From: an uncultured Selenomonadales bacterium
Lineage (GTDB): Bacteria; Bacillota; Negativicutes; Selenomonadales; Selenomonadaceae
NCBI GenBank assembly: GCA_937915725.1
Contig: CALGGV010000013.1
Span: forward strand, 1-50,245
Reading direction: 5' to 3'
Length of the DNA: 50,245 nucleotides
This document shows, piece after piece, positions 9,962 to 41,290 of the stretch (positions are counted from its first letter, which is position 1; each line of letters starts with the position of its first letter). The position numbers were made by a program, and so were the translations under genes. A model generated the notes under the pieces. It was not told the origin of the DNA and ran no database searches. It saw only the letters and a program-made list of their open reading frames with translations.

Positions 9962-10002
9962 CGCCCAAAATCAACCTAAAATCGCCCAAAATGGCGGAAA
10001 AT

Positions 10003-15488: not shown

Positions 15489-15504
15489 TTTTGGAGGCGG
15501 TAAA

Positions 15505-16032
15505 ATGTCAGATTTACTTGAATTAATGCGCACGCGGCGCAGTGTAAGACAGTACACGGAAGAAAAAATTTCAGACGAACAAATTAAAAAAATTTTAAGC
15601 GCGGCGTTGCTTGCACCTTCCGGTCATTCAAAATATCCTTGTGAATTTATTGTAGTGAAAAATTCTGAAACGCTGGAAAAAATGTCACATTGCCGCGTAG
15701 GAGTTGCCAAAATGTTGAATCAAGCGGCGGCGGCTATTGTTGTAATTGCGGACGCTGAAAAATCTGATACTATCGTTGAAGATTCTTCAGTTGCGATGAT
15801 GAATATGGAATTAATGGCAACTTCGCTGGGAATTGGAAATTGTTGGATACAGGTTAGAAATCGTCCCGCAGAAAATAATTTGCCGAGTGAAGATTTTTTG
15901 AGAGACATTTTAAAATTCCCGCAAAATTTCAAATGTCAATCGATTTTATCTTTGGGAATAGCGGCTAAACAACCGCGCCCGCGTGAATTGGAAAAATTAA
16001 ATTTTGACAAAATCCACGAAGAAATTTTCTAA
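15505..16032 (+). CDS. Nitroreductase-family protein
   Basis: ATG preceded by a GGAGG SD. RRSVRQY...AALLAPSG is the typical nitroreductase N-terminal motif. Confidence 0.8.
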   Translation: MSDLLELMRTRRSVRQYTEEKISDEQIKKILSAALLAPSGHSKYPCEFIVVKNSETLEKMSHCRVGVAKMLNQAAAAIVVIADAEKSDTIVEDSSVAMMNMELMATSLGIGNCWIQVRNRPAENNLPSEDFLRDILKFPQNFKCQSILSLGIAAKQPRPRELEKLNFDKIHEEIF

Positions 16033-16055
16033 AACGATTCTATAAATTAAAAATA

Positions 16056-16085
16056 CCCGTCAAAAAAAACGACGGGCTTTTTTAT
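16056..16085 (+). terminator. Rho-independent terminator
   Basis: CCCGTC, 9-nt A-rich loop, GACGGG, then CTTTTTTATT. Confidence 0.6.
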
Positions 16086-16227
16086 TGTCTAAAAATCGCA
16101 AGCGGTAATTTTCAATAAATGCTACAACACATTAAAAAATTGCAAGAAAAATTTTCTACAGATGTGAAGGAATATTTCAAAGTTTGCATAAGTGTTATTA
16201 AGAAATTTTTGTAAGAAGGGATTTTTA

Positions 16228-18225
16228 ATGAATTTTAGTAGTATCAAAGCAAAGTTAATTTTTCTGTTAATAATCATTGGCGCAATACCGATGATTATTG
16301 CTACCGTGATCAGCTCTGCCAACACAGTATCAAACACCATTGAATCTGTCAAGGAAGACTTAAAAATTAAAAATGATTTTATCGCTCAGGATATTTCTTC
16401 GATGATTGGAAATAATTTTATTGCATTGCGCCTTTTGGCTTTAAATCCGACGATACAAGATTATTTAACGACAAATTCAGCCGCCGATATACCGCAAATG
16501 AAAACTTTGATTCAAAACAGCAACAGCCTTTTCAATGATTCAAGCAACATAGTTTTGACAGGCAGTGACGGCTAGCAAATTGTACGCAGTGACAGCGCAA
16601 AACTTGTTAATCTTAAATCACGTGATTATTTTCAAGAGGCGATGCGCGGCAACGAAAATGTTTCAGATGTTATCGTAAGTAAAACCAGCGGCTTGTCAAT
16701 CGTTGTTATTGAAGTACCTGTAAAAAATTCTGCAGGAAATGTTGTAGGAATGTTACAGCGCAATTACAATATTTCAATTTTAAATGAAGTGGTTAATTCT
16801 CAAGCCGACGAAAACACAGAAATTTTTATTCTTGATAAGCACGGTAAATTGGTTGCACATTCCGGCGTTGAAATTAAATCTGAAGAAGACAGGCTAGATA
16901 TGAGCAGTTACGAATTTTTCAAAAAGGCGCAAACTGTAAAATCCGGCACTGAAGAAGAAAATTTGGCAGGTGAACATAAAATCGTAAGTTTCGCCCTTGA
17001 CGAGCAAACAGGCTAGATTATCGCAACTACAAAGCCTTATTCTTTCGCAACGGCTCAAGCTTACAGTCAAGCTTATACTTTGGCGGGAATTGGGCTTGTA
17101 TTGATGATTATTATTACCGTCATTGCCACATTCATTGCCAAAAGTGCAGTTAAACCTATTCAGTTAATCAGCAATACCGCCGCCGAAATTTCTGCAGGCA
17201 ATTTGGCTGTTGAACAAGTTCCCGTTAATTCAAATGACGAACTCGGACAAGTTGCAACCGCCTTTGATAAAATGACTGACAAACTTAATAATTTTTTCCG
17301 AAAAGCTCAAAAAAGTACAAATGAAGTTGCAAATGCATCCGAAAACCTTAACAATAATTCGCAACAATCCGCTGAAGCCGCCAATCAAATTGCCGCGTCT
17401 ATTACAAAAGTTGCCGCCGAAACTTCCGAGCAAAAAAATTTTGTCGTAGCCGCAATTAATACCGTTGACAATATGCAACACTTGCTTGAAATTATTGAAA
17501 AAAATTCTAAGGAAATGGCGGACGCCTCCATTAAAACAAGCAGCACTGCAGAAAACGGCGCAGGAACTATCGGCAATGCTGAAGACGCTATGAAGTCATT
17601 AGAAAAAACCGTTCAAGAATCTGCAAAAGTTATTCAATCGCTCGGCGAACATTCAAAAGAAATTGGGCAGATTGTAGATACTATTTCAGCTATTGCCGCT
17701 CAAACAAATTTGCTTGCGTTAAATGCGGCTATTGAGGCGGCGCGCGCAGGCGAACACGGGCGCGGATTTGCTGTTGTTGCAGAGGAAGTTAGAAAACTTG
17801 CCGAACAGTCAAGCACTGCCGCCGACCAAATTAATCAGCTGATTCAAAATGTTCAAACTCAAACTGATAAAGCCGTTGAAACTATGCAAGCGGGTACTGT
17901 TATGACAAGTAAAAGCGTTGAAATTGTTCACGATACGGGCGATGCTTTTCGTGAAATTGTTAAGCAAGTTGAGGCTCTTTCCGATAAAGTTAATCAAGCA
18001 ACAACCGCCGTACAAAAAGCCAATGAAGGCAGGATTCAAATAACCAACGCAATAAATAAGATTGAAACTGCCGCCGCCAATCTTTCTACTGAGGCTGAAA
18101 CAGTTTCTGCCTCAACGCAAGAACTTTCTGCATCAATCGAAGAAATTGCCGCGGCTAGCCGTCAACTTTCCGGTATGGCTGAAGAATTGGATTCTGATAT
18201 AAATACTTTCAAACTTCGCCGCTAA
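16228..18225 (+). pseudogene. Methyl-accepting chemotaxis protein (double-Cache-like sensor) interrupted by two in-frame TAG codons
   Basis: ORFs 16192..16575, 16642..17016 and 17080..18225 are all in the same frame and read through as one MCP. The only breaks are TAG at 16573-16575 and TAG at 17014-17016, each preceded by GGC. The signalling domain ([33 protein letters not shown]) is intact. Confidence 0.8.
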
Positions 18226-18276: not shown

Positions 18277-18382
18277 CTTTAATTTGAAATTTATGAGTAA
18301 TTTTGGCAAAAACTTTTTTATCATTTCAAAATTTTTCAAATTGCCACCGCCGTTTTTGAATCAACGTAGCAAATTAAATATA

Positions 18383-19171
18383 TCATAAAAAGTTTACCCG
18401 AGTTTGTCCAAAACCTTGAGCGCACAATCTGCCGACGCCGGAATATTCGCCGAATTTCGCAAGCAACATAAAAACTTTTTGTACGTCAGAATTTATTTCT
18501 TTCAAACTGTATTTAAAATTTCCCCAAAATCCTAAAGTTCCTCTGTCATTTGCCAAATAAAATTTTTTACTGCGCCCTTGCCATTCTGTCAGCCGAATTT
18601 GCGCCGTTATTTCCTTGATAACTTTTTTATCGACAGCCGCCGGCATTTGTACTTGTGTCCATTTGTCGGCTAGCGAAGGAAAAATTAAATCTGCGCGAGG
18701 GTACGGCGCGTCGAAATCGTCAATTCTGAATGATACAGGCGTTAAAAATTCAAATTCAATTTCGTTTGCAGGCGAAAGTTTTTTCACGTTTGAAATAAAT
18801 TCTTCTTCAGTTAAAATTTCTGAATTAAAATCTTCAACAGTCAAAATTAATTCTCCAACTTGAATTTTGTAATTTATTGGAATTGCCAACGCCGCCTGTA
18901 AGATTTCGCCGTTTAAGCCGGTTACACGCCAAAAAAAATTATCGCCGCGCCTAACTTGCCAACGCCCTTCAATATTTGGAATATTTTTTAACGGGTCTAA
19001 AAATGAAACTGTGAACGGCTTGATATTTAATTTTTCGTGGACAAAATTTTCAAGCTCCGGCGAAAATTCATGCAGAATTTTGAAAAATACCGCGTGCATC
19101 AACCGCCCGTTTATCAGCGGCAGTCGCGCAGAATTTTCAGCCCGCAATTTGTATGAAACAGCCCCTATCAT
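18383..19171 (-). CDS. cas6: CRISPR-associated endoribonuclease Cas6
   Basis: About 260 aa with the C-terminal glycine-rich loop GVGRLCAQGFGQTRV, typical of Cas6. ATGA overlap with the upstream gene. Confidence 0.75.
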   Translation of the reverse strand: MIGAVSYKLRAENSARLPLINGRLMHAVFFKILHEFSPELENFVHEKLNIKPFTVSFLDPLKNIPNIEGRWQVRRGDNFFWRVTGLNGEILQAALAIPINYKIQVGELILTVEDFNSEILTEEEFISNVKKLSPANEIEFEFLTPVSFRIDDFDAPYPRADLIFPSLADKWTQVQMPAAVDKKVIKEITAQIRLTEWQGRSKKFYLANDRGTLGFWGNFKYSLKEINSDVQKVFMLLAKFGEYSGVGRLCAQGFGQTRVNFL

Positions 19172-21210
19172 TTCACAACCTCAAAAATATTTGGCAAAAT
19201 CAAACGCTGTTTAAATTTTTCGCTAAGTTCAAGCCTGCCCCTTATGTATTCGCCGAGCATTGGTTCAATTTTTTTGCTCCAGTCTTTTTTGTCAACATTA
19301 TCCCAATCCAGCATTAAATTTAATTCTTCCAAAATTTTTTCCCACGCCTCAAACATTCCTTGACTTTTGATATATTTTTTGAAGGCGTCAAGATATTTTT
19401 CAGCGTCAACTTCTTTATAAGGATTTTTAAAGCCGTTTGAATCGAAAATTTCTGTGTAGGCAGTTTCACTTTCAATAAAAAGTTTTGGCGTAACTTTGAT
19501 ACTGCCGAAACCTAAAGATTTTCCCATTCCGATTTTGTACGCGGGATTTTTTGCGCCATTTAAATTGAAAATCATCATAAGTGCGCCGAGTTCAATTTCA
19601 CTTAAATTTTGGAAACGAATTTTAGATTTAAAGCGGTTGCCTTTCTTCAGCGGCGTTAAATCTTTCGTCATACGTTTTTCAGGCGGTTTTCCAACGTCAA
19701 GATTTCTTTCGGCGTCATTCGCCTTCCAATTCCAATTTTTGTTGTGCCAGTAAAGTTTGTAGCCGCGCAGTTTGACAGAATCTTTTTCCCAATGATTTAA
19801 AATTGCGCCGCCTTGCTTTAAATAAAGTTGGTAAGAAGTCGGATTAGGCTGCATAAGTGGATGAGCGGCGGCAGTTTCCATAGTTTCAACAGTAGAAATT
19901 GGTACAGCGTCTTCAAAACAAACGCGGCTTGCCCAATTTTCCTTACTGCCAAAAACCGCGTCCGCAAAATCTATAATTTTTTCACTTTGCAAATTTTCCG
20001 GTACAATATCGCCGATTGAATTTTTGTACGGAATTCTAAAGCATTGCCCGTGCCCAAACGCCGTAACCTGTCCGCCTTCGTATAAAAAATGACACGGTAT
20101 CAAAGATTTAACGTCATCAGGAAGAGAATTACCACAAAGTTTTTCAAGTTGTTCACGTTTCAAAATTCCTCTGTCTGTGAAAAGATTGACGCCGCGCCGG
20201 TTTCTGTCATGTTCATAAGATTTTAAAACTTCGTCCGGCAATTCAATTCTGTGCTTTTCGCTCCAGTCAATATCAGCAAGACTTAAAAAACGAATTATTT
20301 GCTTGCCGTAATTTAATTCTGCATTTTTTTTGGCAATTTCTTCAGCAGTCAACCCTTTCAAACTTGCACGGTATTCTTCGTATTTTTCCCTAGTCAATAA
20401 ATTTTTGTAATTATCTGGTTTTCTTTGCGTATCTGCCCATTGGTTTCCGGTTACAATGTACGCAATTTCACCGTACCATTTAACGCGAGAATCTATAAAT
20501 CTAACCGGACCGAATACTTCTTGAAAATCTTTAATCATAATAAAATCATTTTTGCGCTCAATATTAGGTTTCAGCGGCGCAATAAAATATTTGTTGTCTG
20601 TAGTTTGAATCAGAAAACCGGGACGCGCATTTTTGCCTTTTTCGCCTTCCATTCTTGCCTTGTAGGTGTTGCATAAATCTTCCATCCATTTTGGCGCGCC
20701 ACTTGGAGCCATTAAACACCGAAAATAAATATGCTCGTCATTAAAATCTTCGCCCTTGCCTTGCGATTTTGTACCGCCACGAAACGCGCCGCAAGTTACA
20801 ATTTTAAAAATATTTTTGAACATACCGCGCAGAGAACTTCCGGAAATTATAAATTTATCGACGGGCGCAAAACTTTTTTTACCATTGCCGCCAAAAAATA
20901 ACGGAGTCCAATTTTCAATTTCAAGTTCAATTTCGCCGCTGATTTTTCCAAATTTTTTAATGTGATCTTTGAAATCGTCAACTGTTTCAATTTCTGAAGG
21001 CAAAATTTTTTCAGGCAGTGAAACAAAATTATAAGGCGCGGTTGCAATTTCTGTTGAAATTTTTGGCGCAAAATGTTTAACGGGAGCATTTTTTTTAGGC
21101 GGCGGATTTTTTTTGCCTTTGCTGTAGGAAAAATTTTTTTGCGCCGGTTTTTCTTTCGGCAATGCTACGCCGCCAAATTTTGCTAATTGTTCTCTCCAAT
21201 CTTCAGCCAA
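19168..21210 (-). CDS. Large type III RAMP protein (Cas7-like with a big insertion; TIGR03986-like)
   Basis: Lys/Pro-rich N-terminus followed by APYNFVSLP; RAMP motif ISGSSLRGMFKN; C-terminal G-rich loop GMGKSLGFGSIKV. TTG start with an AAGAAGGTG SD. Confidence 0.65.
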   Translation of the reverse strand: MAEDWREQLAKFGGVALPKEKPAQKNFSYSKGKKNPPPKKNAPVKHFAPKISTEIATAPYNFVSLPEKILPSEIETVDDFKDHIKKFGKISGEIELEIENWTPLFFGGNGKKSFAPVDKFIISGSSLRGMFKNIFKIVTCGAFRGGTKSQGKGEDFNDEHIYFRCLMAPSGAPKWMEDLCNTYKARMEGEKGKNARPGFLIQTTDNKYFIAPLKPNIERKNDFIMIKDFQEVFGPVRFIDSRVKWYGEIAYIVTGNQWADTQRKPDNYKNLLTREKYEEYRASLKGLTAEEIAKKNAELNYGKQIIRFLSLADIDWSEKHRIELPDEVLKSYEHDRNRRGVNLFTDRGILKREQLEKLCGNSLPDDVKSLIPCHFLYEGGQVTAFGHGQCFRIPYKNSIGDIVPENLQSEKIIDFADAVFGSKENWASRVCFEDAVPISTVETMETAAAHPLMQPNPTSYQLYLKQGGAILNHWEKDSVKLRGYKLYWHNKNWNWKANDAERNLDVGKPPEKRMTKDLTPLKKGNRFKSKIRFQNLSEIELGALMMIFNLNGAKNPAYKIGMGKSLGFGSIKVTPKLFIESETAYTEIFDSNGFKNPYKEVDAEKYLDAFKKYIKSQGMFEAWEKILEELNLMLDWDNVDKKDWSKKIEPMLGEYIRGRLELSEKFKQRLILPNIFEVVK

Positions 21211-21808
21211 TTTTTACACCTTCTTTGGAGCAACTGTTCTTACTCATCGCAGTTGCAGGTTCAATCGCCACAAAACGATAATCACTGTAGCCGCAAAGTC
21301 CGGTTTTTTCGTCGCTTGAAATATAATTGCGCGTCAAAAGTCCGTACCATTTAGAATTTTTATCTTCGCAGGGAATTTCCATGCAAAGTTTACGTTGCTT
21401 ATCAAGGAGTTTTATAAAACCGTCGGACACGCTTTTATTTTCGCCCCAGAGCCGCGAAAAACTGTCTACAAAGTACCTTTCGCCGCCTTCGGTATCTTTT
21501 ATATATCTGCCGCAAAAATCGCCGTCAACGCGCTTTAAATGCAATTCTGCAGTTTCGTTAAAAATTCTGCACTCAAGCCAAAATTCCGGCGTAATTTCTG
21601 CGCGCGCAAAAAGTTTTTCGCCTTCAAATTTTCCCCAAATAATATTTTGAATCTGCCACGCCACAAAAACTGCGCGAGCGTTTTTAAATTTTTCCTTGAC
21701 AAGATTTTCAACGACATTCAAAGAAATTTCGCAGTTTATATTTTCAATTTCAGTGGAACATTGGCAAATTTTTAAGCCAACATTTTTTGCAATTTTTAAG
21801 CCGTTCAT
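21203..21808 (-). CDS. csx19: Small type III-D-associated protein (Csx19 / TIGR03984-like, tentative)
   Basis: About 200 aa, sitting between RAMP genes as in III-D loci. ECRIFNETAELHLKR resembles my recollection of the Csx19 motif. Both ends overlap the neighbouring genes. Confidence 0.45.
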   Translation of the reverse strand: MNGLKIAKNVGLKICQCSTEIENINCEISLNVVENLVKEKFKNARAVFVAWQIQNIIWGKFEGEKLFARAEITPEFWLECRIFNETAELHLKRVDGDFCGRYIKDTEGGERYFVDSFSRLWGENKSVSDGFIKLLDKQRKLCMEIPCEDKNSKWYGLLTRNYISSDEKTGLCGYSDYRFVAIEPATAMSKNSCSKEGVKIG

Positions 21809-23121
21809 TCAGATTCACCCCAATTCTTAACAGCCGCGACAAATTCTGAAAGTGCGTCTGTATCGCCTTCAGTAACTTTGCCATTTTCGCCGAGCTTGTA
21901 AGTTTTGCCGTTAAAATTTATTTCGGCGGAAATTCCCTGCAAAGTACCGCGTCCAATGCATTTTTCGCCGCCAATAGCAACTTTTCCCAGCCATAAATCA
22001 CGCAGTAAAAAAATTGCCAAGCCCGCCTCAAAATTTTTTGCACTTAAAATTTCAAAATGTATGTGCAAAGTCGGCGCGTTAATTTTCTGATAAACCGGCT
22101 TAGTTTTGAAAAGCGCGCCCTGCAAAGTTCCGCCGGTAAATCTGTCAATTTTATTTCTTGCGTGTTCAAATTCAGAAACTTTTTCCGGCTCAATGTAACT
22201 TTCAGAAACTATAAAGCGGCTTTTAATTTTTTCGTCGCCTTCAGAATTGCCCATTAAATTATTTAAAAATTTTTCGTCAAGATTCAACTTTTGAAAAATG
22301 TACTCGGCGCGGTGGCGGAAAATTCCTTTCAAACTTGTACCCGGAATTACAAAATCTGAAAGACTTTTCATACTTACAGCCGAAATTTTTTTATTGCGGT
22401 CGTCGTCAGAAATTTCATAGTCTCGCACAATGAATGACGAATTGAATTTAAAATCCGCGTCAACAACAAAATTTTCACTGTCTGCCGAAATAATTTGAGC
22501 GGAGGAAATTTTTTCAGACGCGGTTTTATCTGTAAGCCAAGCGATAACGTCAGCTTTTTTTGTAAAATCGAAAAATTGGGCGTCAATTTCTTCAGCCGCC
22601 GCAAGTCCAAAACCTTTTGCAGTCAACGCGCCTAACCTTATACCGTTTTCAAGTTTGCCCAAAATTTCGGCAATGGTATTTTTAATTTGTTCAATTTCGG
22701 CAAAGTGGCAACCGCGCAAATTTACCAGCATATTAATTTTGCCGCGTGCGCCGCGTTCCACCGCCTCATAATCGTATTTTGCGCCGTCAACGCCCGTACC
22801 CGTCCAGCTGTTAATTTTTACGCCGTCACGGGAAATTATTTCGCCGCCCGTAAGTTCAATATCTTCAATTTGAATCGCACTTTGAAAATTATCCTTGTCG
22901 CCGAAAATTTTTTTGAAAACCTTAGAGCCGCTAAAATCTTCACGCAGGACTCCGCAAATTGAAGTTCCCGGGATAAACGGTACGCCCGCTTGATTTTTCA
23001 AAACGTGAATATCTTTGAAATTGTCAAAATTTTCGCCCGCGCCGTCTCCAATTAAAAGCGGCGATTTTAAAACCAATTCGCCCGTAATTTTAATTTTGCC
23101 GATAATCTGTGAATCAGTCAT
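21805..23121 (-). CDS. Fused double Cas7 (Csm3/Cmr4-like) RAMP protein
   Basis: Two RAMP modules: GVPFIPGTSICGVLRE and VIPGTSLKGIFRHRAEY, with a terminal G-rich loop GGEKCIGRGTLQG. Confidence 0.7.
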   Translation of the reverse strand: MTDSQIIGKIKITGELVLKSPLLIGDGAGENFDNFKDIHVLKNQAGVPFIPGTSICGVLREDFSGSKVFKKIFGDKDNFQSAIQIEDIELTGGEIISRDGVKINSWTGTGVDGAKYDYEAVERGARGKINMLVNLRGCHFAEIEQIKNTIAEILGKLENGIRLGALTAKGFGLAAAEEIDAQFFDFTKKADVIAWLTDKTASEKISSAQIISADSENFVVDADFKFNSSFIVRDYEISDDDRNKKISAVSMKSLSDFVIPGTSLKGIFRHRAEYIFQKLNLDEKFLNNLMGNSEGDEKIKSRFIVSESYIEPEKVSEFEHARNKIDRFTGGTLQGALFKTKPVYQKINAPTLHIHFEILSAKNFEAGLAIFLLRDLWLGKVAIGGEKCIGRGTLQGISAEINFNGKTYKLGENGKVTEGDTDALSEFVAAVKNWGESE

Positions 23122-24643
23122 TTTTGCCGCCGCCTTTCATTGCCGCGTTTTTCCGCGCAAATCTCAAAAAGTTTTGCAGGTACTCATAACAAAATTCATC
23201 TGCAAAATCTGTAAACTTGAAATTAATTTTCTTGAAAAGATTTTCATCGCCGAGCGAAATTGTTTTATTTTCGTAGGGTAATTTTGCCGCGCCGGTCAAA
23301 ATATTATACAGTGTTTGTTCTTCCAGATAAATTTTTTTCAGATTGTCTTGAAAAATGTTGCCGTCCTTACTTTCAGTATTAACTTGTTTACTGAAATTTT
23401 GACGAACATTTTCTTTGCCGACGGTTGAAAGTAAATTGTCAAGGCGTGAGAAAAAGTGCGTAAAATTGCCGCCGCGCAGTTGTGAATTTAATTTTTCGGC
23501 GTCTTCGTGTGCGTAAATTCTCAACTGCTCCAAGTATTTATTAAGCAAAATCTTTCGTGCAATTTCTAAAGTTTCGTCTGAAAAATTTTCCGGTCTTATA
23601 ATTTTCGGCTTTAACTTTGCTAATATGAAATTTTCCGGTTGCCAAAATCTAAGTTGCCCAAAACCTTCTTCAGTGCGCGTACCAAATCCGCTGTACATTT
23701 TTTCGCACAAATTATTTTTATCGGCGTCAGTCAAACTTTTTAAAATTTCAAGTTCAAAAACTGTACCGGCGGCAAGTGCCATAACGCGCGGGCGTTTCAT
23801 TCCCCACGGTACTACAAAATTTTCAATTTCAATTCCGGACGCAAAAATTTTCCCCAACTTAAAATTTTTTTCAAGCTTATCTAAAACTGCAGCCTGTAAA
23901 ATATTTTCAGCACTTATAAAATTATCTTCAATCGCAATTAACGGACTTTCAAGCCGCAAATAAATTTTTTCGCCCAAATTTACCGCCTTAATTTCCTCAA
24001 CCGCGCCAAAACTAAATCTGCACTTGCCGTACTGCGTAAATTTTGAACGCCCGAGCCGCGTCTCAAAAGTTTTATTTTCTAACTCTAATTTGTCAATCAA
24101 AGATTTTTCGCCCAAAATTTCCCCGCAAAAAATCTGTCCTTCTTCCAACGCCTCGTAATTGTAAATGTGCCCTTCCTCACTTTTGCCGGAAATTCTTTCC
24201 TTGCCTTCACTGCGCGACATATGCATAAAAATATTTTTATTTATTGACGCAGTAAAAATTTTTTCGCCGTCAACAATTCCATAACCGCGCAAAGATTTAT
24301 AACCGGCGGGCGGCGTATCTTTCAACAAGTCTGCAATATTATTTTCGTTGCCGGTACCTTTTTTGCCGCGCTGAAGTGAAAGTGGCAAAATAAAACTGCG
24401 CGCGCCGTTAATTTCAGGATTAGCCGAAAGAAATTTTAAGCCGCCATAAAATAATTCTTGAAAATTTTTATCGGCGTGCGCCTTATTGCCCAAATTTTTT
24501 TCTTGCACATAACGCGCCGCCAAAATTCCACGAATTATCGAGCCGCGAATTTCTGAATGACTGCCGGTCATAATTGTTGAATTGCTTGCCGCCGCAATTA
24601 CAACCGGCGATAATGTTTCAATTTTAAATTTAAGCCGGTACAT
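23114..24643 (-). CDS. csx10: Cas5-family RAMP (Csx10-like)
   Basis: N-terminal RAMP motif GSHSEIRGSIIRGILAARY and G-rich loop GFGTRTEEGFGQLRF. The ATG at 24643 is 7 nt after an AAAGGGGG SD, so I prefer it to the listed GTG at 24649. Confidence 0.55.
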   Translation of the reverse strand: MYRLKFKIETLSPVVIAAASNSTIMTGSHSEIRGSIIRGILAARYVQEKNLGNKAHADKNFQELFYGGLKFLSANPEINGARSFILPLSLQRGKKGTGNENNIADLLKDTPPAGYKSLRGYGIVDGEKIFTASINKNIFMHMSRSEGKERISGKSEEGHIYNYEALEEGQIFCGEILGEKSLIDKLELENKTFETRLGRSKFTQYGKCRFSFGAVEEIKAVNLGEKIYLRLESPLIAIEDNFISAENILQAAVLDKLEKNFKLGKIFASGIEIENFVVPWGMKRPRVMALAAGTVFELEILKSLTDADKNNLCEKMYSGFGTRTEEGFGQLRFWQPENFILAKLKPKIIRPENFSDETLEIARKILLNKYLEQLRIYAHEDAEKLNSQLRGGNFTHFFSRLDNLLSTVGKENVRQNFSKQVNTESKDGNIFQDNLKKIYLEEQTLYNILTGAAKLPYENKTISLGDENLFKKINFKFTDFADEFCYEYLQNFLRFARKNAAMKGGGKND

Positions 24644-24645
24644 TT

Positions 24646-25308
24646 TCACGCCCCCTTTGCTATTTTTTCGACTGAAAATTTTTTATCCAAATTTATTATT
24701 TCGCAGGAAATTTTTCCAAAGCCACGATTTCTTTTTGTACCGGCGGCTGTCAAATTTTTTATCGCCAATGCTATTAAATTTAAAATTTTGTCGTTAGGAT
24801 TCAAAATTTCAATCTTGCCAAAAAATTCTACGCCCGCGTTTAAAACGTTCAAATTGTGCAGAGAACCTTTGGCGGCAATTCCATTTTCCAACGCCGTCTG
24901 ATAACGAATTGAAGTAAAAGTTTTCAAAACTTCGGAAGGGCGGAAAATTTCAGGATATTCTTTCTGTAAAAAATCCCATTCGGCGCAAATTTTTTTGTAC
25001 TTGTCAAACGGGCAAATATAAAAATTCGACACAACAATTTGAATATCTGAAACATTTCCCGAATCGTCTGACATTCTGTGAAAAAGATTTTCCGGCGTCT
25101 CCAAATTTTCAGTATCCATTCCGGCAAGTTCAAACATTTCAAAAATTTCAACCGCACTTTCATAAAGCAAGCCCTTAAATCTTTTGGCGGGAAAATAAGG
25201 CAAGCCGTAACTGTCATGAACTATTTCGGCGTCAATATTTACATTTGCTTGACCGGAGCCCAAATGTATTGGCGATTCAACCTTAATTTTTACTTCAAAT
25301 TCTTCCAT
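24646..25308 (-). CDS. Cas7-family RAMP (Csm3-like)
   Basis: GSGQANVNIDAEIVHDSYGLPYFPAKRFKGLLYE and the C-terminal loop GTKRNRGFGKIS. GGAGGTG SD. Confidence 0.7.
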   Translation of the reverse strand: MEEFEVKIKVESPIHLGSGQANVNIDAEIVHDSYGLPYFPAKRFKGLLYESAVEIFEMFELAGMDTENLETPENLFHRMSDDSGNVSDIQIVVSNFYICPFDKYKKICAEWDFLQKEYPEIFRPSEVLKTFTSIRYQTALENGIAAKGSLHNLNVLNAGVEFFGKIEILNPNDKILNLIALAIKNLTAAGTKRNRGFGKISCEIINLDKKFSVEKIAKGA

Positions 25309-26954
25309 TTTTCAGCCACCTCCGGCGAATAAAAATCCATTAATTCTATTGCGTCAACATAGGGCGTGCGCGGCGAATTTTCCGTACTCCACAATAAATC
25401 CGTTATGCAAGTTTCCCAATTCGGCACTACCGGCAACTTTTGCCCTTGAACTTCTAATTGCTGTAAAAATTTTGCTGTATCGTCTTTGCCGCGCTGTAAA
25501 ATTCCCCGCAATTCTTTAATTTTGCCTTGCGTCATAACGTACGGAAATTGCGTTGTGCAGGATAATAAATTTTCGATATTGTAACGGGATTTTTTTTCGT
25601 TGCCGACTTGATAAGGTCCAAAATGCAAATTGCCGCGTGCGCCGGTATATTCACGCTCTCGAATTTGTTCAAGCGTCGGAGCTTGTTCGCCGTGTAAAAT
25701 CGCAAAATCTAACCAACTTGAAATATTTTTTTCAGCGCGCATAGATTCTTTGGCGGCGTCGCAAAGTTGCTCGGCTAATACGTAGCCTCTAAAAAATGGA
25801 TAAGCCGTCGGTAAAATCGCAACGCCCGCGCAACAATCCATTTTCCTTGAAACTTCTTGAGTTAAATTTTCCGGCGAATTTTTGGGCGTTTCCTCGTTCA
25901 AAATTTCCATTAAAGTTTTTGTAAATAAAATTGCCATATTCGCAGGGCAAATGAAAGTTACGTCATCGCCGCCAAGTATCAGCGGGCGTATCGGCAAAAT
26001 TTTTTCATTTTTTAAATCTAAAATATCTGCGAAAAGATTTTCAGTTTTTGCGGCAATAATTTTCAAAAGTAAATCTGCAAACGCGCCTTCAGTTTTTCTG
26101 CGAATTTCCCTTGAAAGTTTGCGCCTTTCCTGCAAATTTTTACAACTGCGAAATTTTACGCCCATATTATTGCCGTCAATGTGAATTATCGCAAAATAAT
26201 TTTCGCCGTCTTTTTGTCCGAGTTCGTCAACTTTTGTTGGAAATTCCCATTCTTCCATTCGCACGGAAGAATTTTTTAATTTAAAAATTTTATTGAAACG
26301 CGCCTTTAAATTTTCATTGGCAACTTTTGAAATTTTCGCCTTAACTGCCGTTTCTTGCGAATAAAATCTAATTTCATCATTCGGCTTTACAATTTTTTCT
26401 GAATCGCAGAAATTCGCCGCCTCGCCGTCAATTTCGCAACTTAAAGTTAAGCCGGTGTAAGGAACATTCACGGCAGGGAAAATATTATTCTGATTATTTT
26501 TCAATTCGCTATAAAGTTCAGAAATATCATCTTGATTCAATTTGCCGTCGATAATATTCAATTCGCCCAACGCCACACCAATTTTTAAGCCGGGGCGTTT
26601 TTCCAAAAGTTTCAAGGAAAAATCTTTGACAACTTCACAGCGTTTATCTTCCTTCGCAGAATCAAAAAGAATTAAAGCATTGCCGCCGCCAATATAAGCC
26701 ACGCAACAACTTTTCATATTTTCCCACGGCGTCTCAATATCTTTTGCGGCGTCCCACACAGTGTCTTCAGCTGACGAAAAATCATCTTCCTCAAAAAAAT
26801 TTTCCAACGTTTCTTTAACCAAAATATCAAAAAAAATTCTGTCCACAATGTACGACGCGCCTATATTTGTTCGCAGTAAATTTCCGGAATAAATGTACCA
26901 CTGAATGGAGCGCGTATCAAAAAGCAACGCGTTATATTTTATTTTCTCTTCCAT
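25290..26954 (-). CDS. cas10: Cas10-like polymerase/cyclase subunit; short form with no HD domain
   Basis: Starts directly with a palm-1-like segment (LLFDTRSIQWYIY...IGASY...YIGGGNALILF). The second palm has AIIHIDGNNMG and an intact GGDD (LILGGDDVTFICP). At 554 aa it has no room for an N-terminal HD nuclease. Confidence 0.7.
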   Translation of the reverse strand: MEEKIKYNALLFDTRSIQWYIYSGNLLRTNIGASYIVDRIFFDILVKETLENFFEEDDFSSAEDTVWDAAKDIETPWENMKSCCVAYIGGGNALILFDSAKEDKRCEVVKDFSLKLLEKRPGLKIGVALGELNIIDGKLNQDDISELYSELKNNQNNIFPAVNVPYTGLTLSCEIDGEAANFCDSEKIVKPNDEIRFYSQETAVKAKISKVANENLKARFNKIFKLKNSSVRMEEWEFPTKVDELGQKDGENYFAIIHIDGNNMGVKFRSCKNLQERRKLSREIRRKTEGAFADLLLKIIAAKTENLFADILDLKNEKILPIRPLILGGDDVTFICPANMAILFTKTLMEILNEETPKNSPENLTQEVSRKMDCCAGVAILPTAYPFFRGYVLAEQLCDAAKESMRAEKNISSWLDFAILHGEQAPTLEQIREREYTGARGNLHFGPYQVGNEKKSRYNIENLLSCTTQFPYVMTQGKIKELRGILQRGKDDTAKFLQQLEVQGQKLPVVPNWETCITDLLWSTENSPRTPYVDAIELMDFYSPEVAEKWKNLK

Positions 26955-27059
26955 AATTTCCCCTCCCTAAAAAAATTTTTCCACAGCTAAAAAAAATATT
27001 CCTGCAACAAAAAGCCGCTTTTGTGTCCTCAAAAAATATAAGTATTAAAAACAAATTTA

Positions 27060-27139: not shown

Positions 27140-29332
27140 GTGGCAAAAATTATTAGCCAGACTAACGCTACGATGCTTTTTGAGGAAATTAATCCTGAAA
27201 AATTAGACTTGCTCACGTTAGTCGGCGATGTCAAAGGCTTTGACAGTTTGTCAGACGAAAAAATTAAGGAAATCCTGGAAACTCTTTGTGTAAAAAATTT
27301 TGATGAGTTCATTGAAAAATTTGATCCCGTTGTTTATTCTTTCTTCAACGCAAACACACAAAAAGTTATGTACACCTTGAAAAAGCCGGAGTCAATACCG
27401 GACGATCTTTTGACTGAAATTCATTTGAATTTGCAAAATGATTTTCTTAGAATGTTGCTTACGCTTGTTGATGCAAAACGTTCTCAAGGTTTACTCAATG
27501 TCGATTTTAAATTTGAAAATTTGACAGATTTAATTTCGCCCCACAAAATTATTGAAGATATTAAGCAAAATCGTAAAGAATTGCGCTATACTTATTCGCA
27601 GTACGTACAACTTGATGACGACGACCCCAAAAAGTTGGATATTGGCGATAAGCTTAACATTATGATGGAAGAGGCTAGCGTCAACTACAATAATGTTATG
27701 GCAATGTTGCCTTTGGCGATTGAGGATATTAAAACGCGGCTGTTACTTTCAAGCGGTGGCGGCGGCGGCGATTCTGCTCCACTTGCATTGGGCGTCTTGA
27801 CTATGGGCGAACAGGGCGAATTGAAAGTTATCGAGGCTCCTAAAGAAGAAAAATCCACTGCCCTTGTTACACTTGATGATAAAGTGAATGAAGGCTTAAT
27901 TGAAGTTATCGGCGAAGATTACGAGGCACTCAACGAAGAAAATCACAACGATTACGTTAAAGCACTTGTAACGCGCACTTTCTGTCCTTTGCCTTCAACT
28001 ATGGTTAGTGAAATTGATATTGCAAAAGAAGTTGAAAATTATAACGCCTATCTGCAATTCTACAAAGAATCTAAAGACGATTTCATTAAAACTGTTAAAC
28101 CGCTGATTGAAAAAATTCTCGGCGTCAGACTTTTCTTTGAACAATATCCTTCAAAATTGCGCGGTATGAGACCAACTTTGCTTATCACAAATATTAGCAA
28201 TGAAATGATGGCTAAGGCTCCAAATATTCCGCGCCTTGTTACTTATCTTAACACTGTAAACGGCAAAAATAATTTTGACAATACAATTTGGTATGCTATT
28301 TTCCCGTCGGTTGCATTTGATGCAGGCAGTAAACCTAAATTGACTCGTCAAAGATTTAAAGGCAATGACGCGCCTACAAATACCAATGTTCACAGCGTTG
28401 AATCCTTAACCAGAATTTTGGACGTTTTAAAAGATTTCCGTATTCAATGTTTCTTCAGTTTCGCCTCAAATGAAAAAAATACTTTCAACGCAATGGCTAC
28501 TGAAGGTATTGAAAAATATATTGATAAATCTTTGCCGCTTACGGCTAAGGCGTTCAGTGAATTTGCTATTCCTTGTTTCCCTAACTTTACTATAATTCCA
28601 AAAGATAAATCCGGCGTTGTTCTTGATACAAAAATGGAAGTCAACGAAAATAATTTGGCTGAAATTTCAAAGGCAAAACAGGATATTATGAAACTTTGGA
28701 TTGACGGCGTTTACGTTGGCGCGGCTTATGTTGCCGCCGGGCTTGTTGCTACTTATCAAGACCCGGAATATCTGAAAATGATTTTCCGTCGTAATATTGA
28801 TAATGAATTGCCGGGCGTTCGTTTCGATATTGAAACCGGCGATAATTCACTTTTGGTTTACACCACGCTTGCCAAAGAAATTACCGGCTTTACCAATCCT
28901 ATCAAAGACGAAATTAACAAAAAATGTTTCGGCTTTGTATTCTCTTCAGAAAATGCAATGTTTAACGGAATGCCAATTACAAACGTTATGGTTTACAAGT
29001 CCAGAAACTTGCTTTACGATGAAGATAACGGCGTTTACGAGCCAATTTATAAAACTCAAGTCACAACTTATATTCAAAGAGTTTTGCGCAATATGTCCAG
29101 CGATTTCAAACAAGATAAAATTGTGCGTTTCTTCAGCAGTAACCCCGCGTCGCAGTCCAGCAAATGGCTTGACAAACGCGAAAGACTCAATGCTATTATC
29201 GGTACCGGCGATGATATTTCTTACAATATTGACGAAGAAAACGGAATTTGCACTTTGAATATCACTTTCAATGGCAATGTTAAAAATCTTGAAATTGAAA
29301 CAAGCCGCACAACTTCTGCAAGACACGTTTAA
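27140..29332 (+). CDS. Contractile-sheath-like protein, apparent TssB(VipA)-TssC(VipB) fusion
   Basis: The N-terminal 170 aa or so carry LLTLVGDVKGF, VKNFDEFIEKFDPVVYSF and VDFKFENLTDLISPHKIIEDI. These are in the same order as the VipA motifs I recall (LLAIGDYT; IDKMTFDEVL; LRFKTLKDFEPENIVQQV). A Gly5 linker (27755-27769) follows, then about 520 aa collinear with remembered VipB landmarks. The call is by eye only. Confidence 0.5.
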   Translation: MAKIISQTNATMLFEEINPEKLDLLTLVGDVKGFDSLSDEKIKEILETLCVKNFDEFIEKFDPVVYSFFNANTQKVMYTLKKPESIPDDLLTEIHLNLQNDFLRMLLTLVDAKRSQGLLNVDFKFENLTDLISPHKIIEDIKQNRKELRYTYSQYVQLDDDDPKKLDIGDKLNIMMEEASVNYNNVMAMLPLAIEDIKTRLLLSSGGGGGDSAPLALGVLTMGEQGELKVIEAPKEEKSTALVTLDDKVNEGLIEVIGEDYEALNEENHNDYVKALVTRTFCPLPSTMVSEIDIAKEVENYNAYLQFYKESKDDFIKTVKPLIEKILGVRLFFEQYPSKLRGMRPTLLITNISNEMMAKAPNIPRLVTYLNTVNGKNNFDNTIWYAIFPSVAFDAGSKPKLTRQRFKGNDAPTNTNVHSVESLTRILDVLKDFRIQCFFSFASNEKNTFNAMATEGIEKYIDKSLPLTAKAFSEFAIPCFPNFTIIPKDKSGVVLDTKMEVNENNLAEISKAKQDIMKLWIDGVYVGAAYVAAGLVATYQDPEYLKMIFRRNIDNELPGVRFDIETGDNSLLVYTTLAKEITGFTNPIKDEINKKCFGFVFSSENAMFNGMPITNVMVYKSRNLLYDEDNGVYEPIYKTQVTTYIQRVLRNMSSDFKQDKIVRFFSSNPASQSSKWLDKRERLNAIIGTGDDISYNIDEENGICTLNITFNGNVKNLEIETSRTTSARHV

Positions 29333-29356
29333 TTTTGAAGTAGAGGGGTTTTTGAT

Positions 29357-29782
29357 ATGGGTTTTAGAGTTTCAATTACCGGCGGCAATGACGTTTCTTT
29401 TGACGAAGGGATTATTACCGGCGTAAACTTTATTTCAGATACGCCCGATAATGCAAATGCAAGATCAACAGACCTTAGCGTCATTATGAAAATTACCGGC
29501 AGAATTAATTTTTCACTCGGCGCAGAAATTAGCGATTCAACCGTTGAATTGGCAAATTGGGCGTTGATGCCTTCAGATCAAGCGGATTGTTACCGCAGTG
29601 TTGAAGTTCAAGTCATAAACGGCGGGCAAGTTGTACGCCAGTATACTTATCCTAACGCCTTTGTTATGGATTACACTGAAGATTTGAACGATGAAGAAGG
29701 CGTCGGTACTTTTACCATTTTGCTGAAACAAAAGAAAGATTTAACGGCAAAAGTGGAACTTAAAGGCAATTTTGAGGCATAA
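29357..29782 (+). CDS. Hcp/TssD-like tube protein candidate, paralog 1
   Basis: 141 aa. The pattern ...W.....YRSVEVQV..GGQVVRQYTYPNAFVMDYTEDLNDEEGVGTFTILLKQ resembles the Bacteroidetes-type TssD (PF17642) layout. It lies immediately downstream of the sheath-like gene. Confidence 0.45.
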   Translation: MGFRVSITGGNDVSFDEGIITGVNFISDTPDNANARSTDLSVIMKITGRINFSLGAEISDSTVELANWALMPSDQADCYRSVEVQVINGGQVVRQYTYPNAFVMDYTEDLNDEEGVGTFTILLKQKKDLTAKVELKGNFEA

Positions 29783-29797
29783 AGGCGGTGATTTTTT

Positions 29798-30223: not shown

Positions 30224-30243
30224 TAAAAAAATTTTGCAAAAAA

Positions 30244-30278
30244 GGGAGACGGCTGAATTTTTTAATTCGCTGTCTCTT
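30244..30278 (+). terminator. Intra-operon hairpin (attenuator/partial terminator candidate) between the structural and accessory genes
   Basis: GGGAGAC GGCT GAATT tttt AATTC GCT GTCTCTT gives a stem of about 14 bp with one bulge, followed by a weak U-tract (TATTGT). Confidence 0.35.
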
Positions 30279-30301
30279 ATTGTATGGAGAGAATTTAATT
30301 T

Positions 30302-31320: not shown

Positions 31321-31332
31321 AGAGGAATTTTT

Positions 31333-31875: not shown

Positions 31876-31880
31876 TTTTA

Positions 31881-35264: not shown

Positions 35265-35272
35265 GTTAAGTT

Positions 35273-41281: not shown

Positions 41282-41290
41282 TCCTTTTAC

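What the first reader, a model, noticed from the sequence alone, without database searches (positions are those of the whole stretch)
18383..26954. Stand-alone type III-D-like effector operon with no CRISPR array, adaptation genes or cOA-responsive effector in 50 kb
Seven translationally coupled genes overlap by 4-19 nt or sit 2 nt apart. They encode a Cas10-like protein, Cas7, Csx10-like Cas5, a fused double Cas7, a Csx19-like protein, a 680-aa RAMP beginning APYNFV, and Cas6.

The Cas10-like protein is only 554 aa. It has no N-terminal HD nuclease but an intact GGDD palm, so cyclic-oligoadenylate synthesis is plausible while DNase activity is not. Yet I saw no CARF, SAVED, Csm6/Csx1, Can or NucC-like gene, no repeat array in any intergenic region, and no cas1/cas2.

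The complex could use an array in trans, or it could be a CRISPR-independent derivative. Cas6 is retained and appears intact, which argues for RNA processing of some kind.
Basis: partly seen in the sequence, partly recalled or inferred. Interest (0 to 1): 0.7.

Follow-up and report, generated by a model that had tools for sequence, protein, structure and literature searches.

The report
Truncated type III-D CRISPR locus, array lost
This is an ordinary type III-D CRISPR-Cas effector operon in a Selenomonadaceae genome whose spacer-acquisition genes and repeat array were deleted or replaced, leaving small recognisable stubs, so it is a stripped copy of a known system and not a new CRISPR-independent machine.

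Summary
The seven overlapping minus-strand genes (18383-26954) are real. They encode Cas10 (HD-less, GGDD intact), Cas7, Csx10 (Cas5-Cas11), Cas7-2x, Csx19, Cas7-insertion (TIGR03986) and Cas6. This is the gene order of the solved Synechocystis type III-Dv complex, except that Cas7 is not fused to Cas5-Cas11.

There is no array, cas1/cas2 or CARF/SAVED gene in the window or in 10 kb beyond each end. This is secondary loss. A close relative (L003) shares the same nitroreductase neighbour and carries cas6-cas2-cas1-leader-array-terminator. The window keeps only the first about 7 codons of cas2, the start of the leader, one degenerate terminal repeat (16087-16107) and the terminator. A nonsense-mutated chemoreceptor gene fills the gap.

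Across 41 complete operons in other species, 27 have a 37-nt-repeat array, 21 have cas1/2 and 30 have CARF genes nearby, so the family is a canonical cOA-signalling system.

The same array-less junction occurs in two other metagenome samples. The window proteins keep all catalytic and family-invariant residues, and dN/dS among these strains is about 0.27. The operon may therefore still work with an array and effector elsewhere in the genome, or it may be a young relic. I could not see the whole genome. Ordinary; low novelty.

The parts
25290..26954 (-). cas10 (554 aa): HD-less type III-D Cas10 with two palm domains. Palm motifs are D13, H258-D260-G261-N262 and GGDD 328-331.
   Evidence: PADLOC Cas10d 1.9e-113 and Pfam Cas10-Cmr2_palm2. 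PDB 8S9T chain C (III-Dv Cas10) 3.7e-20. Motifs conserved in 56 relatives.
24646..25308 (-). cas7 (220 aa), equivalent to the N-terminal Cas7 domain of the III-Dv Cas7-Cas5-Cas11 fusion. The catalytic Asp D26 is present.
   Evidence: PADLOC Cas7_IIId 2.5e-34, plus a match to the N-terminal 195-205 positions of the fused Cas5_IIId profiles. Residues 3-55 align 1:1 with 8S9T chain A residues 3-55, so D26 matches the published catalytic D26. D26 is conserved in at least 93% of 49 relatives.
23114..24649 (-). csx10 (511 aa): Cas5 variant with a C-terminal Cas11-like extension (Cas5-Cas11).
   Evidence: PADLOC Cas5_IIId 1.3e-44, and profile PDLC02091 positions 215-669 of 709. TIGR02674 Csx10 1.7e-15, below its cutoff. 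Residues 8-349 align with 8S9T chain A residues 250-602.
21805..23121 (-). cas7-2x (438 aa): two fused Cas7 domains. D37 is the domain-1 catalytic Asp. The domain-2 loop carries D239-D241.
   Evidence: Pfam RAMPs x2 and PADLOC PDLC02111 6.2e-93. PDB 8S9T chain D Cas7-2x 2.3e-18, with D37 aligned to the published D33. The domain-2 Asp position is only approximately mappable.
21203..21808 (-). csx19 (201 aa): III-D-specific subunit needed for complex assembly in III-Dv.
   Evidence: TIGR03984 1.8e-29, above its cutoff. PADLOC Csx19 2.3e-30. Role taken from PMC11026444.
19168..21210 (-). cas7-insertion (680 aa; TIGR03986 family RAMP with a large insertion domain).
   Evidence: TIGR03986 4.6e-95, model covered end to end. 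The C-terminal Cas7 part matches Cas7-11 structures at 1e-11 and 8S9T chain E.
18383..19171 (-). cas6 (262 aa), intact. It keeps the family-conserved H26 and H45.
   Evidence: TIGR01877 above its cutoff and Pfam CRISPR_Cas6. Conservation.
26955..27018 (-). Conserved cas10 upstream leader or promoter region containing the motif TTTGTTGCAGGAA. DNA homology to relatives ends at its upstream edge, about 27018-27022.
   Evidence: blastn boundaries. Alignment of five loci.
18336..18386 (-). cas2 stub. Its ATG overlaps the cas6 stop (ATGA), as in relatives. The first 7 codons (MIYLICY) match Cas2 (MKYLICYDIP...); the sequence then turns unrelated and stops after 16 codons.
   Evidence: Sequences. blastn homology to L002, L003 and L004 ends at 18365-18367. 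L003 Cas2 confirmed by Pfam.
16192..18225 (+). Methyl-accepting chemotaxis protein pseudogene (one frame, two in-frame TAG stops at 16573-16575 and 17014-17016). It occupies the place where relatives have cas2-cas1.
   Evidence: TAG is a normal stop elsewhere in the window.
16108..16155 (-). Remnant of the start of the CRISPR leader (the sequence that follows cas1 in L003).
   Evidence: Alignment A2. Sequences.
16087..16107 (-). Single degenerate terminal CRISPR repeat, TACCGCTTGCGATTTTTAGAC. It has 3 mismatches to the 3' core of the family repeat, TACCGCTTGCGGTTTTGAAAC.
   Evidence: It is the only hit in the window. It is homologous to the degenerate last repeat of the L003 array.
16055..16077 (-). 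Intrinsic terminator that closes the (former) array. It is conserved with L003 and is followed by the shared nitroreductase gene (15457-16032).
   Evidence: The nitroreductase is 92% identical to that of L003.

Best explanation
**What it is.** The region is the effector half of a canonical type III-D CRISPR-Cas locus. Its architecture sits between III-D1 and the Synechocystis III-Dv variant: cas10, cas7, cas5-cas11 (csx10), cas7-2x, csx19, cas7-insertion, cas6.

**How the encoded machine should work (inferred from the III-Dv structure and biochemistry).**
- Cas6 cuts a 37-nt repeat to give a crRNA with a repeat-derived 5' tag.
- One copy of each subunit assembles on the crRNA.
- Complementary RNA is cut at about three sites by the Cas7 aspartates: D26 of Cas7, D37 of Cas7-2x, and an Asp in the D239-241 loop of Cas7-2x.
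- Target binding switches on the GGDD palm of the HD-less Cas10 to make cyclic oligoadenylate.
- In relatives, cOA would activate the neighbouring CARF-HEPN (Csx1/Csm6-type) RNases.

**What happened in this lineage (shown by sequence comparison).** The other half of the locus was lost.
- cas2 (all but about 7 codons), cas1, most of the leader and every repeat except a degenerate terminal one were deleted or replaced. A now nonsense-mutated chemoreceptor gene sits in their place.
- No CARF or WYL genes lie upstream of cas10, where some relatives such as L002 carry them. An unrelated, widely conserved operon is there instead.

**Consequence.** As encoded here, the operon cannot acquire spacers or make crRNA from a local array.

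**Is it still active? (inferred, not shown)**
- About 50%: it still works with an array and a cOA effector elsewhere in the genome.
- About 40%: it is a recently orphaned relic.
For: **Subtype and subunits.** (profiles; PDB 8S9T III-Dv chains match Cas10, Cas7, Csx10, Cas7-2x and Cas7-insertion).

**Mechanism of the reference system.** PMC11026444 describes a single-copy subunit complex with a 37-nt crRNA. Its catalytic residues are D26, D33 and D246, and its cOA activates Csx1.

**Family context.**
- The operon is conserved in about 45 loci of Negativicutes and other anaerobes.
- Of 41 complete operons, 27 have an array, 21 have cas1/2 and 30 have CARF genes in the fetched flanks.
- Repeats are 35-37 nt, typically ...ACCGCTTGCGGT(A/T)TTGAAAC.

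**Loss.**
- L003 shares the nitroreductase neighbour (92% aa, 87% nt) and has cas6-cas2-cas1-leader-7 repeats-degenerate repeat-terminator.
- Window homology to relatives stops at 27018 and 18367, and resumes at 16113 (L003 only).
- The cas2 stub, leader stub and degenerate repeat are visible.

**The junction is not an assembly artefact.** The same cas6-stub-MCP junction is present in contigs from two other samples (L072, L073).

**Intactness.**
- The window proteins deviate at 0-2 family-invariant positions per protein, mid-rank among orthologues from loci with and without nearby arrays.
- All catalytic motifs are retained.
- dN/dS against contigs of about 96% identity is 0.27 (51 synonymous, 54 nonsynonymous; binomial P = 1.6e-10 against neutrality).
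- The upstream motif conserved with relatives is retained.
Against: **Genome coverage.** Only about 68 kb of a contig of about 149-173 kb was visible, and none of the rest of the genome. A trans array, cas1/2 or a CARF gene can be neither shown nor excluded.

**The dN/dS signal is not clean proof of selection after the loss.**
- The adjacent chemoreceptor pseudogene also gives dN/dS of 0.21, with four-fold higher synonymous divergence. This suggests recombination or gene conversion contributes to the differences.
- Only one of the 96%-lineage contigs (L072) demonstrably carries the junction.

**Signs of decay.**
- One strain contig (L079) has an 11-nt frameshifting deletion in cas7.
- Neighbouring genes (MCP, HaeIII endonuclease, TnpB) are pseudogenes.

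**Direction of change.** It rests mainly on one syntenic relative (L003) plus the stubs.

**Domain-2 Asp.** The catalytic Asp of Cas7-2x domain 2 could not be mapped exactly and is not universally conserved.
Confidence: 0.85

Rival explanations
1. Functional in trans. The operon is an active interference module that draws its crRNAs from a compatible CRISPR array elsewhere in the chromosome. That array could belong to a second CRISPR-Cas locus that also supplies Cas1-Cas2. It would signal to a CARF or other cOA effector encoded elsewhere. This refines the best explanation and does not contradict it.
For: - All seven ORFs are intact and keep catalytic and invariant residues.
- cas6 is retained.
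- dN/dS is about 0.27 among array-less strains.
- The array-less junction is shared by strains from at least three samples, so it has persisted.
- The conserved upstream motif is kept.
- Other species carry the operon with no array or cas1/2 in the fetched flanks, for example L005, L009 and L031.
- From general knowledge, many type III loci lack their own adaptation genes and use arrays of co-resident systems.
Against: - No array or CARF gene is visible in about 68 kb.
- The locus's own array was lost, not merely absent.
- The dN/dS control (the MCP pseudogene) behaves non-neutrally.
- The whole genome was not available.
Confidence: 0.5
2. Decaying relic. After the loss of array, adaptation genes and effector, the operon has no function. 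It is simply too young to have accumulated disabling mutations in the sequenced strain.
For: - Stubs of cas2, leader and repeat show a destructive event.
- The surrounding genes are pseudogenes: MCP with two TAG stops, a frameshifted HaeIII endonuclease and a fragmented TnpB.
- One strain contig has an 11-nt deletion in cas7.
- Relatives also show decay. L019 has an insertion of about 2.6 kb in the csx10 region, and L020, L021 and L035 have fragmented genes.
Against: - There is no lesion in 8.6 kb of coding sequence in the window, nor in contigs L073, L074, L076, L077 and L078.
- Synonymous changes are in excess.
- Invariant residues are kept.
- Most apparent frameshifts in L075 and L079 turned out to be scaffold N-runs.
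Confidence: 0.4
3. CRISPR-independent derivative. The complex has been repurposed. For example, it could be guided by a non-CRISPR RNA processed by Cas6, or it could act with the divergently transcribed 730-aa/DnaJ/FHA/PP2C/TPR operon as a new output module.
For: - The genes are intact despite the lack of an array.
- cas10 shares a 185-nt divergent intergenic region with an operon of unknown function. The N-terminus of its TPR protein hits a PADLOC candidate-defence profile, PDC-M21C, at 2.2e-12.
Against: - The neighbour operon accompanies the III-D genes in none of 68 related loci.
- Its 730-aa protein is 69-92% identical across Negativicutes and Lachnospiraceae, independently of CRISPR.
- No second copy of the repeat or any repeat-like hairpin exists in the window to feed Cas6.
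- The proteins show no lineage-specific change at conserved positions.
- The stubs show recent loss, not an evolved architecture.
Confidence: 0.05

Closest known systems
Synechocystis sp. PCC 6803 type III-Dv CRISPR-Cas (PDB 8S9T/8S9U/8S9V/8S9X; Nat Commun 2024, PMC11026444)
   Same: - Same gene order: cas10, (cas7, cas5, cas11), cas7-2x, csx19, cas7-insertion, then cas6.
- The Cas10 is short, HD-less and carries GGDD.
- The catalytic Asp of the first Cas7 (D26) and of Cas7-2x domain 1 are conserved.
- Relatives of the window locus, like Synechocystis, have Csx1/Csm6-type genes upstream, and cas6, adaptation genes and an array downstream.
   Different: - Cas7 is a separate 220-aa protein here, not fused to Cas5-Cas11.
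- Sequence identity is low (E-values 1e-14 to 1e-20).
- This particular locus has lost its array, cas1/cas2 and CARF genes.
Type III-D1 (multi-subunit III-D with csx10 and csx19, as described in bioRxiv 10.1101/2022.06.13.496011)
   Same: cas10, csx10 and csx19 are present, and the first cas7 is unfused.
   Different: III-D1 is described with four separate cas7 genes and a separate cas11. Here two Cas7 domains are fused (Cas7-2x), Cas11 appears fused to Cas5, and the last Cas7 carries the large insertion.
Type III-D2 and III-E (Cas7x3/Cas7-5 with CorA and SAM-AMP signalling; Cas7-11 gRAMP)
   Same: They share the TIGR03986-type Cas7 with an insertion domain. The C-terminal Cas7 part of the 680-aa protein matches Cas7-11 structures at 1e-11.
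   Different: - There is no Cas7x3, no Cas7-Cas5 fusion, no CorA and no Csx29.
- Csx19 and Cas10 are present.
- Relatives carry CARF-HEPN genes, which points to cOA and not SAM-AMP.
Incomplete or orphan type III loci that lack adaptation genes and arrays (for example the incomplete III-D locus noted in Stygiolobus azoricus, PMC7694759)
   Same: The effector genes have no local array or adaptation module. Function, if any, depends on other loci.
   Different: Here the loss can be reconstructed at nucleotide resolution from stubs and a syntenic relative.

Membership tests
Type III-D CRISPR-Cas | Cas10 large subunit (the HD domain is often absent in III-D) | tested here: met
   PADLOC Cas10d 1.9e-113, full length. 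Pfam Cas10 palm2. No HD domain. GGDD present.
Type III-D CRISPR-Cas | csx10, the signature Cas5 variant | tested here: met
   PADLOC Cas5_IIId profiles 1e-44 to 1e-16. TIGR02674 Csx10 1.7e-15, though only 57 bits against a cutoff of 177. PDB III-Dv Cas5 domain 1.3e-14.
Type III-D CRISPR-Cas | csx19 (frequent III-D-specific subunit) | tested here: met
   TIGR03984 102.6 bits against a cutoff of 35.
Type III-D CRISPR-Cas | Several Cas7 (RAMP) backbone subunits with a catalytic Asp | tested here: met
   There are four Cas7 domains in three genes. D26 (Cas7) and D37 (Cas7-2x) map to the published catalytic residues. The domain-2 Asp maps only approximately.
Type III-D CRISPR-Cas | A CRISPR array that supplies crRNA (local or elsewhere in the genome) | tested here: not met
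   There is no array in the window or within 10 kb of either end; only one degenerate repeat remnant remains. The rest of the genome was not testable.
Type III-Dv (Synechocystis variant) | cas7-cas5-cas11 fused into one gene | tested here: not met
   Cas7 (220 aa) and Cas5-Cas11 (511 aa) are separate ORFs overlapping by 4 nt. They match the N- and C-terminal parts of the fused profile and PDB chain.
Type III-Dv (Synechocystis variant) | cas7-2x double fusion, plus cas7 with a large insertion (TIGR03986), plus csx19 | tested here: met
cOA-signalling type III system | Active cyclase palm (GGDD) in Cas10 | tested here: met
   GGDD and the palm motifs are conserved. Enzymatic activity was not tested.
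cOA-signalling type III system | A CARF/SAVED-type effector that responds to the messenger | tested here: not met
   There is none in the window by Pfam, PADLOC or tblastn with the relatives' CARF-HEPN and Csx20 genes. CARF genes are present next to 30 of 41 related operons. The genome-wide check was not testable.
Type III-D2 / III-E | Cas7x3 with Cas7-5 and CorA (III-D2), or a single Cas7-11 gRAMP (III-E) | tested here: not met
   There are only partial, sub-threshold hits to the gRAMP models (45-57 bits against cutoffs of 700-800). No CorA is present.

The most novel reading that the evidence does not exclude
An array-less, adaptation-less and CARF-less type III-D effector operon has been kept intact under purifying selection in a Selenomonadaceae species. 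The reason would be that it performs a job not needing its own CRISPR module. The bolder reading is that it is guided by a non-CRISPR RNA, or wired to a non-CARF output such as the adjacent uncharacterised DnaJ/FHA/PP2C/TPR operon. The milder version, an obligate trans-user of another locus's array, is far more likely but is already a known behaviour of type III systems.
Probability: 0.05. Interest if true: 0.65.

Novelty: new member of a known kind. Interest (0 to 1): 0.2.

Why it matters
It matters little for CRISPR biology as a class. The system type, its HD-less cyclase-only Cas10 and its subunit architecture are already described and structurally solved.

It has modest value in two ways.
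- It is a clean, nucleotide-resolution example of how a type III locus is dismantled. The effector cassette is conserved as a block from 27018 to 18367, and the adaptation/array and ancillary modules are swapped out around it.
- It documents a large, mostly unannotated Selenomonadaceae/Negativicutes clade of III-D systems. More than 1000 Cas10 homologues were found, and those listed are unnamed or labelled 'hypothetical protein'. The clade has an unfused Cas7 and a Cas5-Cas11 architecture, between III-D1 and III-Dv.

If whole-genome data showed that the orphan operon is maintained without any compatible array, it would become more interesting.

Tried and rejected
1. **Neighbour operon as a new ancillary module. 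Rejected.**
   - tblastn finds none of its nine genes next to the III-D operon in 68 related loci.
   - Its 730-aa protein is conserved at 69-92% identity across distant Firmicutes.

2. **AlphaFold2 of the 730-aa protein** with a 12-sequence alignment. It failed (mean pLDDT 35), so no fold search was run. phmmer against PDB gave nothing meaningful.

3. **TAG reassignment or pyrrolysine** as an explanation for the two in-frame TAGs in the chemoreceptor gene. Rejected: six other genes in the window end in TAG.

4. **Frameshifts in strain contigs as evidence of decay.**
   - The apparent indels in L075 (cas7-2x, cas7-insertion) and in L079 (csx10) are scaffold N-runs.
   - Only an 11-nt deletion in cas7 of L079 remains as a candidate.

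5. **The MCP pseudogene as a neutral control for dN/dS.** It gave 0.21 with much higher dS. It is therefore not a valid neutral control, and it weakens the selection argument.

6. **Promoter scan upstream of cas10.** It was uninformative in this AT-rich DNA: 49 hits against 27.5 expected, and no listed minus-strand site between cas10 and the neighbour gene.

7. **Rfam scan.** It found only two tRNAs and no CRISPR-DR family.

8. **The two-copy 40-nt repeat at 9998-10116** as a mini-array. Rejected: it is unrelated to the family repeat, has only two copies at 85% identity, and lies downstream of a tRNA.

9. **Walking further along the contig.** This was not possible: look-ups are restricted to window-encoded proteins, so only 10 kb on each side could be added.

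10. **HD-like motif reported for III-Dv Cas10 (H354/D355/D356).** The aligned window segment reads N-S-P, so it is not present here.


Full report
**Observation**

Profile searches support every assignment.

| Gene | Best profile evidence |
|---|---|
| Cas10 (554 aa) | PADLOC Cas10d, full length, 1.9e-113; Pfam Cas10 second palm domain |
| Cas7 (220 aa) | RAMP/Cas7_IIId, 2.5e-34 |
| Csx10 (511 aa) | Cas5_IIId, 1.3e-44; also the Csx10 TIGRFAM, below its cutoff |
| Cas7-2x (438 aa) | two RAMP domains; Cas7_IIId, 6.2e-93 |
| Csx19 (201 aa) | TIGR03984, above cutoff |
| Cas7-insertion (680 aa) | TIGR03986, end to end, 4.6e-95 |
| Cas6 (262 aa) | TIGR01877, above cutoff |

GGDD (residues 328-331) and the other palm motifs are invariant in relatives.

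**What kind of system it is**

- Cas10 matches at 3.7e-20 and Cas7-2x at 2.3e-18.
- The window's Cas7 aligns residue-for-residue with residues 3-55 of the fused Cas7-Cas5-Cas11 chain.
- The window's Csx10 aligns with residues 250-602 of that same chain.
- PADLOC's fused Cas5_IIId profiles are likewise split between the two window proteins.

The operon therefore has the III-Dv order (cas10, cas7|cas5-cas11, cas7-2x, csx19, cas7-insertion, cas6) with one fusion not made. That places it between III-D1 and III-Dv as those are described in the literature.

The III-Dv paper (PMC11026444) reports several properties of the reference system.
- One copy of each subunit assembles on a 37-nt crRNA.
- Cleavage occurs at three sites through D26, D33 and D246.
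- The Cas10 has no canonical HD domain, retains GGDD, and makes cOA that activates Csx1.

The window has D26 in Cas7 and D37 (equivalent to D33) in Cas7-2x. The second Cas7-2x domain has a DDD loop (239-241) in the right region, but the exact equivalence is uncertain and the position varies among relatives.

**Organism and family**

- The Cas10 is 100% identical to a protein on a bioreactor-metagenome contig.
- It has more than 1000 homologues. Named hits are Selenomonadaceae and Quinella, at 62-80% identity, and are annotated as hypothetical.
- A scan of one genome per species returned 68 loci. The gene set is conserved in about 45 of them, from Selenomonadaceae through Megasphaera, Anaerovibrio, Phascolarctobacterium and others.

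**What normally surrounds the operon**

I clustered all flanking ORFs of loci L002-L061 and annotated the recurrent clusters.
- The commonest neighbours are one or two CARF-HEPN proteins of the Csx1/Csm6 type (PADLOC CARF2--CARF_HEPN, about 1e-130; 34 loci).
- Others are Csx20, two WYL/WCX regulators, a small CARF protein, Cas1 and Cas2.
- A k-mer array finder found CRISPR arrays of 35-37-nt repeats, typically ending ...ACCGCTTGCGGT(A/T)TTGAAAC.
- Of 41 complete operons, 27 have an array, 21 have cas1/2 and 30 have a CARF gene within the often short fetched flanks. Only two have none of the three.

The family is thus a canonical, adaptive, cOA-signalling type III-D system.

**What is missing here, and why**

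The following are absent from the window.
- No array was found by four methods.
- No homologue of any of the recurrent neighbours was found.
- No CARF or SAVED hit appeared in Pfam or PADLOC scans of the other ORFs.
- Ten kb beyond each end also lacks arrays and cas genes.

The absence is secondary. Locus L003 (77% identical Cas10) shares the nitroreductase gene on the cas6 side (92% aa, 87% nt). Between cas6 and that gene it has cas2, cas1, a leader of about 280 nt, seven repeats, a degenerate last repeat and a terminator.

DNA homology between the window and L002, L003, L004 and L019 is confined to 27018-18367. It ends about 17 nt into cas2. For L003 it resumes at 16113, running through the terminator into the nitroreductase gene.

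At the corresponding places the window retains four remnants.
- A cas2 start codon overlaps the cas6 stop (ATGA). Seven Cas2-like codons follow (MIYLICY), then unrelated sequence and a stop.
- About 45 nt resemble the start of the L003 leader.
- A single degenerate repeat core, TACCGCTTGCGATTTTTAGAC, lies at 16087-16107. It is the only such hit in the window.
- The terminator hairpin is conserved.

The interval in between is filled by a methyl-accepting chemotaxis gene on the opposite strand. That gene carries two in-frame TAG codons and is therefore a pseudogene.

On the cas10 side, homology to relatives stops about 65 nt upstream of the ATG, just beyond a conserved TTTGTTGCAGGAA motif. Where L002 has WYL and CARF-HEPN genes, the window has an unrelated divergent operon.

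**Is the junction real, and is the operon still constrained?**

- The identical cas6-stub-chemoreceptor junction occurs on contigs from two other metagenome samples, at 96% and 99% identity. It is not an assembly artefact and is shared by a population.
- The window's seven proteins differ at only 0-2 of the positions that are invariant in 17-21 close orthologues. That is mid-rank in a leave-one-out comparison with orthologues from loci with and without nearby arrays.
- Against non-redundant contigs of about 96% identity covering parts of all genes except csx10, I counted 51 synonymous and 54 nonsynonymous differences. This gives dN/dS of 0.27, with P = 1.6e-10 against neutrality.

There are three caveats.
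- The neighbouring chemoreceptor pseudogene gives a similar ratio (0.21) with four-fold higher dS. Recombination with functional copies may therefore shape these differences.
- Only one of the divergent contigs demonstrably carries the junction.
- Most apparent frameshifts in strain contigs were scaffold N-runs. One 11-nt deletion in cas7 (L079) may be real.

**Interpretation**

The evidence supports a truncated canonical III-D locus, not a CRISPR-independent derivative. Whether the surviving effector module is active depends on an array and a cOA effector elsewhere in the genome, which I could not inspect. I rate 'functional in trans' at about 0.5, 'young relic' at about 0.4 and 'repurposed' at about 0.05.

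The divergent neighbour operon is not a candidate output module.
- It is absent next to all related III-D loci.
- Its 730-aa protein is conserved at 69-92% identity across distant Firmicutes.

**Novelty**

The system type and architecture are known. PADLOC already has profiles for the unfused form. Orphaned or incomplete type III loci are also known (for example). This is a new member of a known kind, with a well-resolved history of module loss. Interest is low.

Noticed in passing
window 27140-37951 (+): An operon of unknown function is transcribed divergently from cas10. Its first gene encodes a 730-aa protein with no Pfam, NCBIfam, PADLOC or PDB match. That protein is nevertheless 69-92% identical across Selenomonadaceae, Dendrosporobacter, Clostridium colinum and Lachnospiraceae, and NCBI labels it 'transcriptional regulator'. 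The other genes are two 141-aa unknowns, a DnaJ-domain protein, two FHA proteins, a PP2C phosphatase, a 747-aa TPR protein and an 892-aa unknown. The N-terminus of the TPR protein hits the PADLOC candidate-defence profile PDC-M21C (2.2e-12). AlphaFold2 on the 730-aa protein failed (pLDDT 35).
   Followed up: partly
window 16192-18225 (+): A dCache-HAMP-MCP chemoreceptor gene reads in a single frame but is interrupted by two TAG codons (16573-16575, 17014-16), both in the context GGC TAG. A strain contig (L072) has a 17-nt deletion in the same gene. Its 3' end and terminator are 85% identical to a sequence about 10 kb upstream of cas10 in L003, which hints at a rearrangement.
   Followed up: partly
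window 46879-48844 (+): This is a HaeIII-type restriction-modification pair. The C5-cytosine methylase (46879-47889) is intact. The HaeIII-like endonuclease is split by a frameshift into two ORFs (47886-48365 and 48362-48844), leaving an orphan methylase.
   Followed up: no
window 49600-50115 and L070 9766-10950: A TnpB/IS605 OrfB-type gene is broken into three ORFs: HTH_OrfB_IS605, a 171-aa middle part and a Cas12f1-like TNB domain. It is a decayed transposon-associated nuclease.
   Followed up: no
window 38342-41936 (-), tRNA at 39888-39958: This is a low-GC patch (about 34-35%) next to a tRNA gene. It carries a phage-type Dam-like methylase (39133-39819) and several small ORFs with no family hits. 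It is probably a remnant of an integrated element.
   Followed up: no
window 9998-10037 and 10077-10116 (+): A 40-nt direct repeat occurs in two copies (85% identical, 79 nt apart). It lies downstream of a tRNA (9809-9892) and upstream of a DUF4127 gene. It is unrelated to the CRISPR repeat of this family.
   Followed up: partly
window about 26990-27018 (-); L002, L003, L004, L019 at about 9925-9960: The motif TTTGTTGCAGGAA(A/T)A is invariant about 50-60 nt upstream of the cas10 start in five otherwise diverged loci. It could be a promoter element or an operator, for example for the WYL regulators found in relatives.
   Followed up: partly
L019 12360-14975; L032 and L040 (Selenomonas sputigena ATCC 33150): Relative L019 has an insertion of about 2.6 kb interrupting csx10. 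It also has a different 35-nt-repeat array plus a cas2 8-10 kb upstream. The complete S. sputigena genome carries two diverged copies of this III-D operon, each with its own array (37-nt and 35-nt repeats).
   Followed up: no
L009 (Selenomonadaceae RGIG6124), whole locus: This is another species in which the complete seven-gene operon has no array, cas1/2 or CARF gene within 9.8 kb upstream and 3.2 kb downstream. It may be an independent case of a stripped effector module.
   Followed up: no
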